From Escherichia phage PGN829.1: a stretch of DNA of 64,000 bases. Below the pieces are notes generated by a model. It searched no databases. It was not told the DNA's origin and worked only from the letters and a program-made list of their open reading frames with translations. Shown piece by piece: positions 16,513 through 26,931 of this stretch; the first letter of the stretch is position 1; every line of letters starts with the position of its first letter. The stretch is from sequence record NC_070871.1. The stretch is one strand, 5' to 3'. The translations under genes were made by a program, and so were the position numbers.

Positions 16513-16565
16513 CGCTTATTCTCCTAAATATTATTAATAACCAAAAGCTGCGGAGCAGCTATTAC

Positions 16566-21233: not shown

Positions 21234-21248
21234 AGACGCGGAGCGTCT
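21234..21248 (-). promoter_or_regulatory. candidate hairpin promoter of the N4 virion-RNAP type (6-bp stem, GGA loop) driving minus-strand transcription
   Basis: Plus strand reads AGACGC-GGA-GCGTCT; core GCGGAGC equals the core of the N4 P2 hairpin as I recall it; in a 127-nt intergenic gap upstream of the ATG at 21126. Confidence 0.35.
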
Positions 21249-21472: not shown

Positions 21473-21510
21473 AGTAGATAGTTATCTACTTTTGATTGAC
21501 TATCTAATGT

Positions 21511-21538
21511 TTATAAAAGGAGACTCCGAAGAGCCTCC
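21511..21538 (-). terminator. intrinsic terminator (minus strand)
   Basis: Stem GGAGACTC/GAGCCTCC (one G-U) with CGAA loop, followed by CTTTTATAAAC on minus strand. Confidence 0.45.
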
Positions 21539-21546
21539 TAGGTGAC

Positions 21547-21870
21547 TTAGTCTTTAGTCAGGATGTCAATTACTTTGGAATATTCTGCGTTATAGATACG
21601 AGCGTTCTCTGAATCCTTGCAGAATTCTTCAATACTTTTCTTACGCAGAGTCTCAGTCATAGCTGTTTCCTCTGCCAGTTTATTAACAAAGGTATGCATT
21701 TCTAATTTAGTACGAATGGCTTGTTTCTCTGCCATAGTACTTACATATGAATTAAGCATACCTACTGCTTTAGTTGCTGTACCGAATGTATCTGCAACAG
21801 TAGTAGCAGCTGAGTTAACAGTACCAAGTAAAGTTCCTGCGGTCATACGTACAGTAGCGGTAGTAGTCAT
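21547..21870 (-). CDS. hypothetical protein
   Basis: 107-aa ORF. Confidence 0.3.
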   Translation of the reverse strand: MTTTATVRMTAGTLLGTVNSAATTVADTFGTATKAVGMLNSYVSTMAEKQAIRTKLEMHTFVNKLAEETAMTETLRKKSIEEFCKDSENARIYNAEYSKVIDILTKD

Positions 21871-22071
21871 GATGATAGCTCCAATAGTTGATGATAGGAC
21901 GACATGTCCATAACATGCGGAGCATGTGTAACGTGTAAGGTGGGGTAGGGTAGTGGCTACACCGTCAACATACCGGGGGGGCTAGTTGAGTGTAAGGGTG
22001 TAGCCCCAGCCACAACACTGCTGCTGTACATAGTTATGACCAAAATGGTATGCAAAAATATGATAGCTATC

Positions 22072-22410
22072 CTACTTATAAGCAGTTAAATAGGAGGGAG
22101 CTTTGTTTATGAAACGTATAGTCCTGAATGAGTTACCTTCCCTCACCACACTGGCTCTTATTTTTACGGGTAAGAAGATGTGGAAGTAGTCTCCTTCCGG
22201 AGCAAGGTAACAATCATGTTCGTTGAGGATAACTATCTCAGCATTACTGTTATTAAGCAGTTTATGCCCTTGGGCAAAGTTTGCTAACTCTCCAGGTTCC
22301 ATTATTAGAGTAGGATTACCATAGGGCATAACGTGGATGATTGCTTTCTCTGGTTCAGAGGAATAGTGCAGTAAGTCTGTACCATTCATGCCTAAGAGCT
22401 TAACGTTCAT
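22072..22410 (-). CDS. early-region paralog family member (divergent)
   Basis: 112 aa; weak version of the family motif (MEPGELANFAQGHKLLNN). Confidence 0.35.
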   Translation of the reverse strand: MNVKLLGMNGTDLLHYSSEPEKAIIHVMPYGNPTLIMEPGELANFAQGHKLLNNSNAEIVILNEHDCYLAPEGDYFHIFLPVKIRASVVREGNSFRTIRFINKAPSYLTAYK

Positions 22411-22714
22411 GCTTTAATACCTGTTCAAGAATGCTATCCATGTAATAACAGTATGCTTCACTGTTACTACTGTTTACAGGCATACCAATGTAATCAAATA
22501 CCCATAAGCAGAAGTGGTTTACTTCATGGATAAGTGTCGGTAAGGGTTCTGAAAAGATACCCATAAGAACCTTATTGCCGGAGTAAGAAGTGAAACCCTT
22601 ACAACCTTCTATGTCTGGTTCGTACCCTTTGAGCTTCTTGTACTTTTTTCGGAAGACTTCTCTGTCATTAACTATCTCCAGTTGTACTGGGTATGGGGAT
22701 GTGTTTATTTTCAT
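22400..22714 (-). CDS. hypothetical early protein with HExxH-like motif
   Basis: 104 aa; TLIHEVNHF; doubtful member of the neighbouring paralog family. Confidence 0.3.
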   Translation of the reverse strand: MKINTSPYPVQLEIVNDREVFRKKYKKLKGYEPDIEGCKGFTSYSGNKVLMGIFSEPLPTLIHEVNHFCLWVFDYIGMPVNSSNSEAYCYYMDSILEQVLKHER

Positions 22715-22995
22715 TGTCTTTCCTTATATACAGGGGTGTCATCCTCGAAGGATAGGATGTACTTATCTGTATTGAGGTGCCAAGGACTAAAGCTACCTTG
22801 CCAGGACATTGGTGTTCCTGGTTCTAGTAAATGTACTACTGAATTCTTATTGCATAAGAAAAGTAATCCTTGTAGTTCATGCAAGGACTGTTCGTCTGGA
22901 ACCAGGATAAGTACATCAGCATCTAGGTTATCTACATCTTTATGGAGAATGTAATCCTCCCCATTAGGTTCTGGATAAACTTTACTGATAACCAT
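22711..22995 (-). CDS. early-region paralog family member
   Basis: 94 aa; VLILVPDEQSLHELQGLLFLCN...LLEP. Confidence 0.4.
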   Translation of the reverse strand: MVISKVYPEPNGEDYILHKDVDNLDADVLILVPDEQSLHELQGLLFLCNKNSVVHLLEPGTPMSWQGSFSPWHLNTDKYILSFEDDTPVYKERQ

Positions 22996-23315
22996 TAGAG
23001 GCTCTCGTCGCTAGATAAATATGAGGTAGAAGGGTAGAGGGTAATAAGTCTACCGGTTAGGGTAGTTACTACCATAGGCTCATTCACAGATAGTATGTAC
23101 ACACTAGTGTGTTCTGGTACTTCCACGGAATCTTCTATCTTAATAAATTTGATAGGCTGCCCCAACATTAAGCAAGTACCAATGAACACTTCTGCTTCTT
23201 CACTTGGCTCATATAGGATGGTGGTAACTCTCTCCCTACCTGCCAGGATATTATCCAGCGTATATGGGGATAGATAGCAAGTAGTGGCAAAGCTAATAAG
23301 GCAGTACGGGTGCAT
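22995..23315 (-). CDS. early-region paralog family member (divergent)
   Basis: 106 aa; ILYEPSEEAEVFIGTCLMLG. Confidence 0.35.
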   Translation of the reverse strand: MHPYCLISFATTCYLSPYTLDNILAGRERVTTILYEPSEEAEVFIGTCLMLGQPIKFIKIEDSVEVPEHTSVYILSVNEPMVVTTLTGRLITLYPSTSYLSSDESL

Positions 23316-23318
23316 AAC

Positions 23319-23633
23319 TTATTTCCTTACATAGTAGTAACGGTATTCCTCATTCTCATAATGACTATCCCACTGGTACTCATCAGATACCATCATGAAT
23401 GGTAGAGCATCATGAGCACTACTAACAGCGTATACTGATGGAGGAATGATACATATAACCTTACGGTCACTACCTGCTAAGAATAACTGACCTCTTGCTT
23501 CATGGTAGTCCTCTAGAGTAGGAACCAGGATTACACGTTGTGAGCTACTGTTCATGACTTCTTCTAAAGTGAAGTCATTTGTATACAAAGATTCCCTTTC
23601 AGCATAACTGGGGACGGTCATTATGAATTTCAT
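23319..23633 (-). CDS. early-region paralog family member
   Basis: ORF 23319-23696 trimmed to ATG at 23631-23633 (GAAGGA SD); RVILVPTLEDYHEARGQLFLAG...IIPP. Confidence 0.4.
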   Translation of the reverse strand: MKFIMTVPSYAERESLYTNDFTLEEVMNSSSQRVILVPTLEDYHEARGQLFLAGSDRKVICIIPPSVYAVSSAHDALPFMMVSDEYQWDSHYENEEYRYYYVRK

Positions 23634-23997
23634 GATTGATTTTCCTTCCTTTGGGGATAGGTCTGAAGTAAATGGAAAGTGTTTTATTAAAGACATTATG
23701 GTCAGCTATCAATTCCCAACCAGGTATTTTATAGAACCTAACACCAGGGAAAATCATACTAAAGTCGCTGTAAAAGGAGAGGTCATACACCTTTGGTTCA
23801 GTGAGTATCTTAGTATTGAGTTTCAAGTTGGATAAGAAAAGAGAACCAATAACTTCGTGGGACTCTTCACAATCAGGAAAGAATACTGATTGCCACGGGG
23901 TAATGAACTTACTTACTATCTCTGGTTCCCCAAGGTAGTAAGGTTCTTGATTACGAAGTATTCCAGTAATATCAATATCAAAAGCGTAGATGCTCAT
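23599..23997 (-). CDS. early-region paralog family member
   Basis: 132 aa; AGGAGG SD 9 nt upstream; SVFFPDCEESHEVIGSLFLSN...ILTEP. Confidence 0.4.
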   Translation of the reverse strand: MSIYAFDIDITGILRNQEPYYLGEPEIVSKFITPWQSVFFPDCEESHEVIGSLFLSNLKLNTKILTEPKVYDLSFYSDFSMIFPGVRFYKIPGWELIADHNVFNKTLSIYFRPIPKGRKINHEIHNDRPQLC

Positions 23998-24197
23998 AAT
24001 TGCATACCTCCTGAAAAAGAAATGGGGTAGAGCCTCTCGACTCTACCCCTTACCGTTTTCAATCACGGGTCAGTTCATCACCCTAGATACATGTGTATCG
24101 TTAGCCTACTAGGTAGGAAAGGAGCCGGGTAACCCTGACTGTAGAAGTTATTAACTCTTTACGAGTACCGCCACTATCTACTAGGCGGCATGACTAA

Positions 24198-24488
24198 TCA
24201 CATCGTCACCATCATCCGAACACTGTCTTTTTCTCGTCTGACGGAGACACTATGAGGTAATTTTGTGAAGAACACAAGAGATGGAATAGACTTTTCTAAA
24301 GAGTAAGTTTCTCTTGGTTCTAAGATCTTAATGCCTGGACGATTTTCTAACAGCATCATCCCAGCTAATTCGTGGTAAGTATCCTCATCGTGGGTAATGA
24401 TGATATCACCTGATAGAAAGCCAACCTTGGTGTGGTCTAGCTCAGAGTATTTATCTTCAGAGTCTTGGACTCTCATATAGATTCTCAA
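24198..24488 (-). CDS. early-region paralog family member (first gene of the minus-strand early block)
   Basis: 96 aa; TTG start with AAGGAG SD 6 nt upstream; DIIITHDEDTYHELAGMMLLEN...ILEP. Confidence 0.4.
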   Translation of the reverse strand: MRIYMRVQDSEDKYSELDHTKVGFLSGDIIITHDEDTYHELAGMMLLENRPGIKILEPRETYSLEKSIPSLVFFTKLPHSVSVRREKDSVRMMVTM

Positions 24489-24659
24489 AGGTTACTCCTT
24501 TTGGGAATAGGGTCATCGGAACATTACATACTATTTAGTATCATGAACTTTTTCTATATCATGACTAAAGTGTAACTGTATGGTATCGTTTCTTCAAGGG
24601 GTATCTCACCCCAAGAAAAGAATCTTCTTTAATAGACATAACTTTGTAGCGAGATAAGT

Positions 24660-25349
24660 ATGAGTGAACTAACTAAGCAGCAGATTGTTAATGCCCTACC
24701 TGCTAACTTCAAAAACAGTGTAACCCAGGAGTTGGTGGACACAATTAACAACATTACCCAAGACCAACTGGTTGCTGAAGCATTCCGTGAAAACTTCATC
24801 TCTTACTCTGGAGTTATGAAGGAAGGTAAGTTTAAGACACAGGACTACATGAATGCAGTTCAGTATGTGACTTATAAACACATGGGCTACTCAAACAAGG
24901 AAGCCTACTTCAAGACATTCCCTAACCGACAAGCAGAACTTGTAGCAAGGGGAACCAGTGAGAAAGACATTAGTGCTTACGTGTCTGCTTACCACAGAGG
25001 CAAGCTAGTTAACCTCATCATGGAACAAAGTTTGGTTCCAGTGTGGATTGTGAACCAGGATAATTATCAGAAAGCAATCAACGTTCAGGTTGAACTAATG
25101 ACCACAGCAGCCAGTGAGAAGGTAAGATGTGATGCAGCTAACTCTATCCTTACCCACTTGGCTAAACCAAAAGACCAGGTAACAAATATCAATCTGGACT
25201 TAAGAGAAAACTCTGGGTTGACTGACCTCAAGGCAACACTTGCTGCATTAGCTGAACAGCAAATTAATGCAATCAATAGTGGTGTACCTACCAAGGAGAT
25301 TGCTGGTTCTAAACTAGTACGTGCAAATGAGGACATTACAGATGTCTGA
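24660..25349 (+). CDS. putative terminase small subunit (by position upstream of terL)
   Basis: 229-aa first gene of the plus-strand late operon; its stop overlaps the terL start. Confidence 0.4.
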   Translation: MSELTKQQIVNALPANFKNSVTQELVDTINNITQDQLVAEAFRENFISYSGVMKEGKFKTQDYMNAVQYVTYKHMGYSNKEAYFKTFPNRQAELVARGTSEKDISAYVSAYHRGKLVNLIMEQSLVPVWIVNQDNYQKAINVQVELMTTAASEKVRCDAANSILTHLAKPKDQVTNINLDLRENSGLTDLKATLAALAEQQINAINSGVPTKEIAGSKLVRANEDITDV

Positions 25350-26931
25350 GTTAATTAAACAGGAACTAGATGAATGGCTGGACCAGGTGGATTACTCCTA
25401 CCTTAATTCATCTAACTATGTTCCTAGTCAGTTTGCTCTTACCTTTGCCAACTTTATTAAGTTGGTTAATGGTAAGGAAGGTGAATCCAACAAAACACCT
25501 CCAGTTCACTTGAAGATGTTGGATAAGATGATTAGTCCGAACCAGTATGTAGTTAACCTGTGCTTCCGTGGTGCAGGTAAGACTGCTGTGTTCATGGAAT
25601 ACTTTACTTTATTCCTGGCAGTGTTTGGTCACTTGCCCAGTCTGGGTAAAGTTGAAGGGATGATTTACGTATCCGACTCAATGGATAACGGTGCTAAATC
25701 TGCACGTAAGAATATTGAGTTCCGATATAAAAACAGTGAGTTCCTTCAGCAATGGATACCTGAAGCTACCTTTACGGATAACCTGTTAGAGTTTCGTAAT
25801 GTAGAAGGGCATCGGCTTGGCGTTAAGCTGTTTGGTGCTAAGACAGGTCTTCGTGGTACGAAGATATATGGTAAACGTCCAACACTCTGTGTATTGGATG
25901 ACTTGATTAGTGATGGTGATGCTAACTCCAAGACAAGCATGGAAGCTATCAAGGATACCGTCTATAAAGGTGTGAACCACGCCCTTGACCCAACCCGTCG
26001 TAAAGTAATTTTCAATGGTACTCCCTTTAATAAGGAAGACATTATCATTGAAGCAGTTGAGTCTGGTGCATGGGATGTCAACGTATGGCCTGTATGCGAG
26101 AAGTTCCCCTGTAGCAGGGAAGAATTTCAGGGTGCATGGGATGACCGTTTCTCATATGACTACATCAAAGCTCAATACGATATGGCAGTTAAGACGGGTA
26201 AGCTGGCAGGCTTCTATCAGGAACTTATGCTTCGTATTAGCTCTGAAGATGAGAGACTGGTTCAGGATAGTGAAATTAGATGGTATAGCAGACAGCAACT
26301 GTTAAGGATGAAGTCCTGCTACAACTATTATATTACAACCGACTTTGCTACTTCGGAGAAACAGACCAGTGACTACAGTGTCATTTCAGTTTGGGCTTAT
26401 AGTTCTAATGGAGATTGGTTCTGGGTTGATGGTGTGGCTAATCGTCAGCTTATGGATAAAAACTTTGATGACCTGTTCCGTCTGGTTCAGGAATACCAAC
26501 CACAAAACGTTGGTGTCGAAGTTACAGGTCAGCAGGGTGGATTCATTTCACTCCTTCAGAAAGAAATGATTAACCGTAATGTCTTCTTTAATTTTGCATC
26601 CTCTGAGGGTGGTAAGCCAGGCATACGTCCTGTAACCTCTAAGCTGTCACGCTTTAACCTGGTAGTTCCATGGTTCAAAGCTGGTAAGATGTACTTCCCA
26701 GAAGAGTTGAGAGATTCAACTATTATGGGTCTGTTCATGGGCCAGATTAAACTAGCTACCATTAATGGAATCAAAGGTAAGGATGACTGTATTGATACTA
26801 TCTCCATGCTGGGTTATCTCAATCCCTGGAAACCACAAGCAGGTATGACCATGGTGGATAACAAAGGTGACCCAATGTGGGATGATGAAGAAGAAGATAG
26901 TGTTAACCCACTACGTTCATACATTGTGTGA
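25342..26931 (+). CDS. terL: terminase large subunit
   Basis: Trimmed to ATG at 25342 (ATGTCTGA overlap); Walker A-like CFRGAGKTAV, Walker B-like LCVLDD; about 530 aa with C-terminal nuclease-size domain. Confidence 0.7.
   Translation: MSELIKQELDEWLDQVDYSYLNSSNYVPSQFALTFANFIKLVNGKEGESNKTPPVHLKMLDKMISPNQYVVNLCFRGAGKTAVFMEYFTLFLAVFGHLPSLGKVEGMIYVSDSMDNGAKSARKNIEFRYKNSEFLQQWIPEATFTDNLLEFRNVEGHRLGVKLFGAKTGLRGTKIYGKRPTLCVLDDLISDGDANSKTSMEAIKDTVYKGVNHALDPTRRKVIFNGTPFNKEDIIIEAVESGAWDVNVWPVCEKFPCSREEFQGAWDDRFSYDYIKAQYDMAVKTGKLAGFYQELMLRISSEDERLVQDSEIRWYSRQQLLRMKSCYNYYITTDFATSEKQTSDYSVISVWAYSSNGDWFWVDGVANRQLMDKNFDDLFRLVQEYQPQNVGVEVTGQQGGFISLLQKEMINRNVFFNFASSEGGKPGIRPVTSKLSRFNLVVPWFKAGKMYFPEELRDSTIMGLFMGQIKLATINGIKGKDDCIDTISMLGYLNPWKPQAGMTMVDNKGDPMWDDEEEDSVNPLRSYIV

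What the first reader, a model, noticed from the sequence alone, without database searches (positions are those of the whole stretch)
22072..24488. Tandem array of six to seven diverged paralogous small early genes
The first minus-strand early genes (24198-24488, 23599-23997, 23319-23633, 22995-23315, 22711-22995, 22072-22410, and possibly 22400-22714) encode 94-132-aa proteins sharing a core of the form hydrophobic stretch, Pro, acidic pair, x-x-H-E-[LV]-x-G-x-L-F-L-x-N ... I-L-x-E-P (for example DEDTYHELAGMMLLEN, DEQSLHELQGLLFLCN, LEDYHEARGQLFLAG, CEESHEVIGSLFLSN). Tandem duplication with rapid divergence at the start of the early region is what host-takeover or anti-defence loci look like, and I do not recognise the family.
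Basis: seen in the sequence. Interest (0 to 1): 0.65.

Follow-up and report, generated by a model that had tools for sequence, protein, structure and literature searches.

The report
Fast-evolving paralog array behind conserved RNA
At the right end of an N4-type coliphage genome, six of seven small genes are fast-evolving copies of one uncharacterised protein family, and five of those six lie downstream of a previously undescribed conserved structured RNA ending in a terminator; the function of both is unknown.

Summary
The window is a G7C-like (Gamaleyavirus) N4-type coliphage.

**Paralogy.** A (24198-24488), B, C and E are paralogs by leave-one-family-out profile comparison: 83-96.5% probability, scores 37-58 against about 10 for shuffled columns. 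G joins them at 61-83%. D joins through G at 85%. F (22400-22714) is unrelated and carries an invariant HExxH...E signature.

**Not early genes.** A and B are homologs of N4 gp70 and gp71. The array lies at the right genome end, between the small terminase and the terminal repeat. The three virion-polymerase hairpin promoters and gp1 lie beyond it.

**Evolution.** Only about 22 sequence clusters exist among 1.84 billion representatives, all from N4-like phages. There are no Pfam, NCBIfam or PADLOC hits. Array proteins are 54-92% identical between close relatives, against 97-99% for the terminase. Copy number varies between phages.

**Conserved RNA.** The 186 nt between A and B (24014-24199, minus strand) form a structured RNA ending in a terminator just before B's ribosome-binding site. 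It occurs in seven genera of two subfamilies. 39 of 47 pairs show compensatory changes, and Rfam has no match.

**Function.** Most likely these are read-through-gated, mid-infection host-interaction proteins. That is inferred, not shown.

The parts
24489..24659 (.). Divergent intergenic region between the small terminase gene (gp69 homolog, 24660-25349, plus strand) and gene A. It presumably holds the promoters of both.
   Evidence: It is strongly conserved between Gamaleyaviruses, N4, KP8 and Moo19 (alignment). No confident sigma-70 match and no virion-polymerase hairpin heptamer. Its conserved 13-mer is not repeated elsewhere in the window above chance.
24198..24488 (-). Gene A, 96 aa, homolog of N4 gp70. 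It is the most widely conserved member of the family.
   Evidence: phrog_7213. tblastn finds it in 96 phage records from Escherichia, Shigella, Klebsiella and Achromobacter N4-like phages. Where the record keeps the N4 orientation, it lies near the right end. hhalign against the rest of the family gives 93.9%. AlphaFold2 model: pLDDT 70.6, pTM 0.60.
24014..24199 (-). Conserved structured RNA. It is the 3'UTR of gene A and the leader of genes B-G. Elements: helices P1 and P2, single-stranded AAUAAC, a junction helix P3a/P3b enclosing hairpins P4 and P5, an invariant CUCC in the junction, a GGUGA motif, hairpin P6, and an intrinsic terminator (24024-24049 plus a U-run). The terminator ends about 10 nt before the ribosome-binding site of gene B.
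   Evidence: - Terminator.
- Fold z-score -4.0.
- RNAalifold on 8 sequences aligned by sequence alone: -58 kcal/mol, 47 pairs, 7 compensatory. 96.5% of cells paired, against 36-44% with slid partners.
- Covariance model R1 was built from close relatives only. It finds full-length matches in N4, KP8-like, Moo19 and four Achromobacter phage lineages.
- 19 distinct sequences: 97% of cells paired, 39 of 47 pairs with changes on both sides, 0 of 500 shuffles as high.
- No Rfam match.
23599..23997 (-). Gene B, 132 aa, homolog of N4 gp71. First gene of the tightly packed B-G operon.
   Evidence: phrog_9160. The PhAPEC5 and G7C records note similarity to N4 gp71. hhalign 83.0% against the rest of the family.
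23319..23633 (-). Gene C, 104 aa (G7C gp71.1 type), paralog. It overlaps the end of gene B by 35 nt.
   Evidence: phrog_11661 matches from residue 22 of the longer ORF. hhalign 95.4%.
22995..23315 (-). Gene D, 106 aa (G7C gp71.2 type). A divergent paralog of the D/G clade.
   Evidence: phrog_12099. The direct comparison with the core family is not significant (0.9-6%). Linked to the G family at 84.9%, E 6.5e-6. Achromobacter phage Axy12 gp39 matches both the family profile and the D profile.
22711..22995 (-). Gene E, 94 aa, paralog. It is the hub of the family in profile comparisons.
   Evidence: phrog_16338, which gene A also hits at E 2e-4. hhalign 96.5%. AlphaFold2 model: pLDDT 58.5.
22400..22714 (-). 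Gene F, 104 aa. Not a member of the family. It carries an invariant HExNH, then 18 residues, then SEAYCYY (a gluzincin-like signature).
   Evidence: phrog_1365. hhalign 0.2-0.3% against the family. Invariant columns H63, E64, H67, E86. No Pfam or PDB profile match.
22072..22410 (-). Gene G, 112 aa, divergent paralog. It is the last gene before the terminal repeat.
   Evidence: phrog_12606. hhalign 83.5% and 61% against the family. G-type orthologs in other phages hit the family HMM directly.
22075..22098 (-). Conserved 24-nt joint CCCTCCTATTTAACTGCTTATAAG. It encodes the C-terminal PSYLTAYK of whichever gene is last in the array.
   Evidence: The same block ends G-type, D-type and E-type last genes in different phages, while the sequence upstream of it is unrelated. 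An F-type protein in Bp4 (P0324) carries the same PSSYLTAYK tail. The 88 bp before the G7C repeat match window 22100-22013, although G7C lacks E, F and G.
21547..22012 (-). Context only: the start of the terminal repeat and the true early region. It holds a P1-type virion-polymerase hairpin (ACATGC-GGA-GCATGT on the template strand, around 21910-21930) and the gp1 homolog (21547-21870).
   Evidence: G7C terminal repeat positions 6-468 match window 22007-21547. The U1G record ends at 22012. GCGGAGC sites. Precomputed Pfam hit PF26891 Phage_N4_Gp1.

Best explanation
This is the right-end accessory module of a G7C-like N4-type phage.

**Shown**
- Gene A (gp70 homolog) is followed immediately by a 186-nt conserved structured RNA. 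That RNA ends in an intrinsic terminator about 10 nt before the ribosome-binding site of gene B.
- Genes B to G are packed with overlaps or 3-nt gaps. The consensus scan finds only two weak intragenic sigma-70-like matches, fewer than expected by chance.
- Six of the seven proteins are paralogs built on one small domain. C, D and E are clearly acidic (pI 4.4-4.8). The predicted fold is a beta-sheet with a single helix.
- They evolve about ten times faster than the neighbouring terminase.
- Copy number changes between phages, and a conserved 24-nt joint marks the boundary with the terminal repeat.

**Inferred**
- The module is transcribed only after the whole genome has entered the cell, probably in the middle phase by the phage's second RNA polymerase.
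- B to G are made only by read-through of the RNA's terminator. The RNA therefore acts as a gate, either because different polymerases respond differently to the terminator or because a factor or ligand binds the RNA.
- The paralogs are dispensable host-interaction proteins, anti-defence or host-factor binders. Each would present the same scaffold with a different surface.

Confidence is about 0.85 for the anatomy and about 0.35-0.4 for the function.
For: - **Position and orthology:**
- **Paralogy:**
- **Restriction to N4-like phages:** 225 hits, all those listed being small unnamed or hypothetical proteins, many on about 70-kb contigs. 22 clusters among 1.84 billion representatives. Foldseek against viral models matches only uncharacterised proteins of N4-like phages at E <= 0.001.
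- **Fast divergence and acidic composition:**
- **Variable copy number**: N4 has A and B. G7C has A-D. U1G, PhAPEC5, ECBP1 and this window have A-G. Moo19 has A plus six genes, at least four of them family members. KP8 has at least five members. Achromobacter phage Axy12 has three.
- **Operon packing:**. **Terminator in front of B's ribosome-binding site:**. The same terminator is annotated in PhAPEC5.
- **RNA conservation and covariation:**. The gp70-RNA-gp71 order is kept in all seven genera examined.
- **No virion-polymerase promoter in the module:**. The left end is injected first (PMC4496689).
- **Positional analog:** the 29 small ORFans at the right end of Pseudomonas phage LUZ7 are covered by mid-infection transcripts (PMC9163698; gene map).
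Against: - There are no expression data for this phage group. The promoter of gene A could not be classified.
- No sequence or profile similarity to any known anti-defence or defence-related family.
- gp70 is conserved across two subfamilies, which fits a conserved function better than an arms race.
- The RNA's thermodynamic z-score without its terminator is weak (-2.1 to +0.4).
- The LUZ7 ORFans are not homologous to this family, and LUZ7 lacks the RNA. The timing argument is therefore by position only.
Confidence: 0.4

Rival explanations
1. One reading: these are the first early genes, transcribed by the injected virion RNA polymerase, and they act in immediate host takeover.
For: In this record the array is contiguous with, and upstream of, gp1 and gp2 on the same strand. 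In concatemers it would precede the early region. It consists of small, fast-evolving ORFans.
Against: - Orthologs are N4 gp70 and gp71, at the right end just before the terminal repeat.
- The only three hairpin-promoter heptamers lie at 21917, 21238 and 16550, downstream of the array.
Confidence: 0.04
2. The proteins serve a genome-end, replication or packaging function. Examples would be handling the terminal repeat or concatemer junction, or assisting replication, rather than interacting with the host.
For: - The array sits between the terminase genes and the terminal repeat in every lineage.
- gp70 is conserved across two subfamilies.
- A conserved joint lies at the boundary with the repeat.
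- The authors of the LUZ7 study suggested a replication-related role for its right-end ORFans, which are transcribed mid-infection (PMC9163698).
Against: - Between close relatives the proteins are 54-92% identical, while the terminase is 97-99% identical.
- Copy number ranges from 2 to 6 or more.
- There is no similarity to any nuclease, terminase accessory protein or DNA-binding family.
- Several members are markedly acidic.
Confidence: 0.2
3. The proteins and the RNA work together. gp70-family proteins would bind the conserved RNA, either to autoregulate read-through or to form a ribonucleoprotein particle.
For: - The order gp70, RNA, gp71-like gene is kept in all seven genera examined.
- Both structure models hit the RNA-binding RecA-like domain 2 of DEAD-box and other SF2 helicases most often.
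Against: - Helicase motifs are not evident in the alignments.
- The proteins are acidic to near-neutral (pI 4.4-6.5), which is unusual for RNA binders.
- Co-occurrence could simply reflect operon structure.
Confidence: 0.12
4. The shared motif is chance similarity or a compositional artefact, and some of the ORFs are not genes.
For: Pairwise scores are low (23-29 bits). Each ORF sits in its own PHROG. One gene caller did not call G.
Against: - Profile comparisons exceed column-shuffled controls by more than 10 standard deviations for A, B, C, E and G.
- Every ORF has conserved orthologs in many phages.
- The negative controls, F and gp1, score at background.
Confidence: 0.02

Closest known systems
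Coliphage N4 gp70 and gp71 (YP_950548, YP_950549), both hypothetical proteins
   Same: They are direct homologs of A and B. They sit at the same place, after the small terminase and before the right terminal repeat, with the same 210-nt gap holding the same RNA. gp70 and gp71 both match the family profile, so they are themselves paralogs.
   Different: N4 has two family members plus a 42-aa gp72. This phage has six members plus the unrelated F. No function is recorded for the N4 proteins.
The right-end cluster of 29 small ORFans (gp87-gp115) of Pseudomonas phage LUZ7
   Same: Same position and polarity: rightward, after the gp69-like gene, running to the genome end. They are small ORFans of unknown function, covered by mid-infection transcripts (PMC9163698).
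   Different: No sequence relationship: all profile scores are below 1.5 bits. The conserved RNA is absent. The proteins are shorter (about 55-75 aa).
Terminator-containing leader RNAs (riboswitches and attenuators) and 3'UTR-derived small RNAs
   Same: A conserved multi-helix RNA ends in an intrinsic terminator directly in front of the ribosome-binding site of the downstream operon. It is continuous with the stop codon of the upstream gene, as in 3'UTR-derived small RNAs.
   Different: It matches none of the 4227 Rfam families, even at E <= 1. No ligand, no conserved alternative antiterminator fold and no target has been identified. Its host polymerases include a T7-like phage enzyme.
RecA-like domain 2 of SF2 and DEAD-box helicases (fold level only)

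Membership tests
N4 gp70/gp71 superfamily (defined here; merges phrog_7213, 9160, 11661, 16338, 12606, 12099) | Shared core: a strand, P-D/E-E, a helix with H-E-x2-G-x-L-x-L-x-N, a strand, E-P. Detectable by profile-profile comparison above shuffled controls. | tested here: met
   A 93.9%, B 83.0%, C 95.4%, E 96.5%, G 83.5%. D joins only through G, at 84.9%. F is not met (0.2-0.3%).
N4 gp70/gp71 superfamily | Position between the small terminase gene and the right terminal repeat, on the strand opposite to the terminase. | tested here: met
   Window, U1G, PhAPEC5, G7C, N4, KP8, Axy12, Axy13, Axy10, Axy24, phiAxp-3 and JZBo1.
N4-type early genes (transcribed by the virion RNA polymerase) | Location in the leftmost 10% or so of the genome, downstream of a hairpin promoter with a GC-rich stem and a 3-nt loop (PMC4496689). 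| tested here: not met
   The array lies upstream of the left terminus at about 22012. GCGGAGC hairpin cores occur only at 21917, 21238 and 16550.
Known anti-defence, defence-related or host-takeover protein families | Significant match to a curated family model. | tested here: not met
   No Pfam hit at E <= 1. No NCBIfam hit above noise. No PADLOC hit. All matching PHROGs are of 'unknown function'. Activity itself cannot be tested with these tools.
SF2 helicase C-terminal RecA-like domain | Clear fold match, and helicase motifs IV-VI including the arginine finger. | tested here: inconclusive
Gluzincin-type zinc metallopeptidases (gene F only) | HExxH, plus a third-ligand Glu about 18-25 residues downstream, plus recognisable family homology. 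| tested here: inconclusive
   HExNH and a Glu 18 residues after the second His are invariant in 12-31 homologs. Neither a PDB profile search (best E = 1, unrelated protein) nor Pfam finds a peptidase.
Any described RNA family (Rfam 15) | Covariance-model match to the intergenic RNA. | tested here: not met
   No match at E <= 1 on the RNA in the window, or in N4, KP8, Jgk1, Axy12, Axy13 or Axy10.
Riboswitch or transcription-attenuator leaders | A conserved structured domain followed by an intrinsic terminator upstream of the regulated ORF, plus an effector-dependent alternative fold. | tested here: inconclusive
   The first feature is met. The effector and the alternative fold cannot be tested here, and no conserved antiterminator was established.

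The most novel reading that the evidence does not exclude
The gp70-gp71 intergenic element is a new class of phage riboregulator, conserved across two Schitoviridae subfamilies. It gates expression of a diversifying array of host-interaction or anti-defence proteins. It would do so either by sensing a cellular or phage signal, or by discriminating between the host RNA polymerase and the phage's T7-like RNA polymerase II at its terminator. The gp70 family may be its protein partner.
Probability: 0.3. Interest if true: 0.8.

Novelty: new variant of a known kind. Interest (0 to 1): 0.55.

Why it matters
N4-like phages (Schitoviridae) are widespread, are used in phage therapy, and are a classic model of transcription. 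Their right-end genes gp70-72 have nevertheless never been assigned a function.

Three results follow from this work.
- These genes form one fast-diversifying superfamily, which gives a defined set of candidates for anti-defence or host-factor screens.
- Array content varies between near-identical phages through a fixed joint. This gives natural gain and loss variants to compare.
- The conserved structured RNA with a terminator in front of the array is a concrete regulatory element that can be tested directly. N4-type phages use three RNA polymerases in succession, so a terminator read differently by each enzyme would be a simple timing device.

There is also a practical point. Several database records, including Moo19 and this 'Enterococcus faecium' chromosome, are linearised or joined so that these right-end genes look like the first early genes.

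Tried and rejected
- **Curated protein libraries.** Pfam, NCBIfam, PADLOC and PHROGs annotations gave nothing informative for any of the seven proteins.
- **Close-relative locus search with gene B.** It returned only near-identical phages.
- **Classifying the promoter of gene A.** The sigma-70 scan found fewer sites than expected by chance. The conserved 13-mer upstream of A is not repeated elsewhere. The promoter class stays open.
- **One MAFFT alignment of all RNA lineages.** It misaligned the 3' half, and RNAalifold then saw only P1 and the terminator. This was solved with a close-relative alignment and a covariance model.
- **Thermodynamic stability of the RNA without its terminator.** It is not distinctive (z from -2.1 to +0.4). 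The case rests on covariation, not on energy.
- **Pseudoknot between the P1 loop and the invariant CUCC.** Rejected by eye on the sequences: the loop varies while CUCC does not.
- **Link to the LUZ7 late small RNAs (orf69/orf70).** Rejected. They lie at a different locus and the model finds nothing in LUZ7.
- **Degenerate DNA pattern scan of viral contigs for the RNA.** It gave almost only chance hits. Of the 80 loci listed and tested with the covariance model, only N4 itself was confirmed. The scan therefore served as a specificity control.
- **Literature searches** for gp70, gp71 or an N4-like non-coding RNA found nothing relevant.
- **Gene F against PDB and Pfam profiles.** No peptidase match.
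Full report
**What the window is.** Window positions 21500-25500 match Escherichia phage U1G at 96% identity, and dozens of other Gamaleyavirus (G7C-like, N4-type) genomes at 85-93%. The window carries a 3456-aa virion RNA polymerase ORF and a late gene block on the plus strand. Proteins identical to genes D and E are recorded from a 2.76-Mb 'Enterococcus faecium' chromosome, CP043865.1, at 2.69-2.71 Mb, and that locus reproduces this gene order. The phage is therefore embedded in, or mis-joined to, a Gram-positive assembly. That is almost certainly an artefact.

**The observation.** All seven ORFs exist as described. I call them A (24198-24488), B (23599-23997), C (23319-23633), D (22995-23315), E (22711-22995), F (22400-22714) and G (22072-22410). 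Each falls in its own PHROG of unknown function. Only A cross-hits E's PHROG. None hits Pfam, NCBIfam or PADLOC.

Pairwise BLASTP is weak: A-E 29 bits, C-E 27, B-C 26, B-E 23. I therefore built one alignment per family from orthologs in related phages and compared profiles. With each family left out in turn and compared with the rest, hhalign gives:

| Family | Probability | Score |
|---|---|---|
| A | 93.9% | 43 |
| B | 83.0% | 37 |
| C | 95.4% | 52 |
| E | 96.5% | 58 |
| G | 83.5% | 36 |

Thirty column-shuffled versions of each family score 9.5-11 +/- 2, with a maximum of 18. D scores 15-21, at the edge of its shuffled range, although always in register. With enlarged alignments D matches G at 84.9% (E 6.5e-6), and G matches the core family at 61%. 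An Achromobacter phage protein, Axy12 gp39, hits both the family profile and the D profile. F and the flanking gp1 homolog score at background in every test. So there are six paralogs in two clades (A, B, C, E and D, G), and F is unrelated.

**Where the array really is.** Annotated relatives identify A as N4 gp70 and B as N4 gp71. In N4, G7C and six Achromobacter and Klebsiella phages the genes lie after the small terminase gene, on the opposite strand, and run up to the right terminal repeat. The first base of the G7C terminal repeat and the end of the U1G record both map to window position about 22012, 60 nt past the stop codon of G.

Beyond that point come three features of the true early region:
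- a hairpin of the N4 virion-polymerase promoter type (stem, GGA loop, stem on the template strand);
- the gp1 homolog (21547-21870; precomputed Pfam hit PF26891);
- a second hairpin, followed by the gp2 homolog.

The heptamer GCGGAGC occurs three times in 64 kb: 95, 774 and 5462 nt from the terminus. [quoted passage not shown] The array is therefore not the start of the early region. It looks so only because this record joins the right and left ends. The Moo19 record has the same trap: it is cut inside the module, so its 'gp1' to 'gp6' are B-, C-, D- and E-type genes.

**How the family behaves.** A profile search of 5.8 billion proteins returned 225 hits. All those listed are small unnamed or hypothetical proteins, many on about 70-kb contigs, and none has a Pfam domain. 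An exhaustive HMM search of 1.84 billion cluster representatives returned 22 clusters, nearly all small proteins that fall in the same four subfamilies. tblastn finds gp70 in 96 phage records from Escherichia, Shigella, Klebsiella and Achromobacter.

Between this phage and other Gamaleyaviruses, the terminase subunits are 97-99% identical. The array proteins are far less conserved: A 60-86%, B 82-92%, C 72-85%, D 54-80%, E 71-73%, F 56-59%, G 67-69%. Against N4 the large terminase is 86% identical and A is 34%.

Array content differs between phages:

| Phage | Array |
|---|---|
| N4 | A-B |
| G7C | A-B-C-D |
| this window, U1G, PhAPEC5, ECBP1 | A-B-C-D-E-F-G |
| IME11 | A-B-C-D-G'-F-G |
| pSb-1 | A-B-C-D-G'-E' |
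| Moo19 | A, then six genes, at least four of them family members |
| KP8 | at least five members |
| Axy12 | three members |

Whichever gene is last ends in the peptide PSYLTAYK. That peptide is encoded by an invariant 24-nt block (window 22075-22098), and the sequence upstream of the block is unrelated between phages. D in this window still ends in a decayed copy, YPSTSYLSSDESL. This suggests that genes are added or exchanged at that joint.

The proteins are soluble and acidic to near-neutral. C, D and E have pI 4.4-4.8.

**The RNA between A and B.** The 200-nt gap between A and B is not a spacer. It folds well (z = -4.0). It ends in a perfect terminator (24049-24024 plus a U-run), whose U-run stops about 10 nt before the AGGAGG of gene B. 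The same gap exists in N4 and in every other lineage.

Single-sequence folds of nine lineages independently give one architecture, with different helix sequences:
- P1, with an 11-nt loop;
- P2, of variable length;
- AAUAAC;
- a junction helix P3a/P3b enclosing hairpins P4 and P5;
- an invariant CUCC in the junction;
- a GGUGA motif;
- P6;
- the terminator.

The comparative evidence is as follows.
- RNAalifold, on eight close relatives aligned by sequence alone, recovers all helices: -58 kcal/mol, 47 pairs, 7 compensatory.
- On that alignment 96.5% of cells are paired, against 36-44% when partners are slid, and no shuffle out of 500 reaches the observed covariation.
- A covariance model built only from those eight sequences finds full-length matches at the same locus in other lineages: Moo19 142 bits, Axy13 56, Axy12, Axy24 and phiAxp-3 49, KP8-like 43-49, N4 42, and Axy10 39 with filters off.
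- It finds one copy per genome. It finds none in the right 39 kb of LUZ7 and none in about 700 kb of unrelated viral DNA.
- On the model-fitted alignment of 19 distinct sequences, 97% of cells pair and 39 of 47 pairs show changes on both sides. This alignment leans towards the structure, so the result is the unbiased one.
- Many G-U pairs make the structure specific to the transcribed strand.
- Rfam 15 has no match at E <= 1 in any lineage, and I found no paper describing it.
- Energy alone, without the terminator, is unremarkable.

**How it most likely works.**

*Shown:* the order A, RNA with terminator, then B-G packed with overlaps of 1-35 nt or a 3-nt gap, with only two weak intragenic sigma-70-like matches, fewer than expected by chance.

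*Inferred:*
- The right end enters the cell last, so the module cannot be expressed until the middle transcription machinery is working (PMC4496689).
- Its polarity is that of early and middle genes, not of the leftward late genes.
- The positional analog in LUZ7, 29 right-end ORFans, is covered by mid-infection transcripts (PMC9163698). It is not homologous.
- B-G would be made only from transcripts that pass the terminator. The RNA is thus a gate, and it could respond to polymerase identity, to a protein or to a ligand.
- Fast divergence, variable copy number, dispensability in some relatives and restriction to one phage family all point to host-interaction or anti-defence proteins. No known family matches, so this remains a hypothesis.

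They are weighed in their own sections.

**Gene F.** Its homologs keep HExNH, 18 residues, then SEAYCYY invariant. The spacing resembles that of gluzincin metallopeptidases; that comparison rests on my own knowledge. Profile searches of the PDB and Pfam find no peptidase.

**Verdict.** The array is a new, well-delimited example of a familiar kind of phage accessory locus. The conserved RNA in front of it is the more novel element.

Noticed in passing
window 24014-24199 (minus strand): A conserved structured RNA of about 186 nt lies between the gp70 and gp71 homologs and ends in an intrinsic terminator just before the ribosome-binding site of gp71. It is present at the same locus in seven genera: Gamaleyavirus, Enquatrovirus, Kaypoctavirus, Moovirus, Dongdastvirus, Inbricusvirus and Pourcelvirus. 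It shows extensive compensatory base changes and has no Rfam match.
   Followed up: yes
window 22075-22098 (minus strand), with the sequence on to about 22013: An invariant 24-nt block, CCCTCCTATTTAACTGCTTATAAG, forms the 3' end of whichever gene is last before the terminal repeat, whether G-, D-, E- or F-type, giving the tail PSYLTAYK. It overlaps a sigma-70-like match (TTAACT, 18 nt, TATCAT; TATAAT in G7C) that points into the repeat. It may be a recombination joint or a cis-acting site at the boundary between unique sequence and repeat.
   Followed up: partly
window 22400-22714 (minus strand), gene F: This 104-aa protein (phrog_1365) carries an invariant HExNH, then 18 residues, then SEAYCYY. 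That is a minimal gluzincin-like zinc-peptidase signature. It is conserved at 56-93% identity in N4-like phages, including KP8. No Pfam or PDB profile match was found.
   Followed up: partly
whole window; L018 = CP043865.1 2694803-2715123: The sequence comes from a 2.76-Mb 'Enterococcus faecium' chromosome record (GCA_009937865.1) that contains an N4-like coliphage genome. Proteins D and E are named as E. faecium hypothetical proteins. This is probably contamination or misassembly. The two genome ends are joined through a single copy of the terminal repeat.
   Followed up: partly
window 21910-21930, 21234-21248 and 16550-16556 (template = plus strand): Three GCGGAGC cores of the N4 virion-RNA-polymerase promoter type (6-bp stem, GGA loop seen at the first two) lie 95, 774 and 5462 nt from the left genome terminus. 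They sit upstream of the gp1 homolog, the gp2 homolog and the RNA polymerase II genes, which matches P1-P3 of N4.
   Followed up: partly
window 24489-24659: The divergent region between the small terminase gene and gp70 is unusually conserved between N4, KP8, Moo19 and the Gamaleyaviruses. An example is GATTCTTTTCTTGGGGTGAG..CCCCTTGAAGAAAC followed by TTA[CG]ACTTTAG. Its promoter class could not be assigned.
   Followed up: partly
L020 (Achromobacter phage Axy13, MK962632.1), locus positions about 2075-2520: An unannotated ORF starts right after the RNA's terminator (GGAGGTCCGATG...). It encodes a gp71-like family member with core ILLLPDSDTGHSIYGQLLVEG, scoring 25.7 bits against the family profile. 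The 522-nt 'gap' in that record is therefore a missed gene.
   Followed up: yes
L041 / L015 (Shigella phage Moo19, MZ358387.1): The record is linearised inside this module. gp86 (gp70 type) and the first 38 nt of the RNA lie at the record's end. The RNA reappears in full at positions 20-251 of the record's start, so the ends overlap slightly. The genes numbered 'gp1-gp6' (B, C, D and E types) follow it. The record's gene numbering therefore does not reflect the early region.
   Followed up: yes
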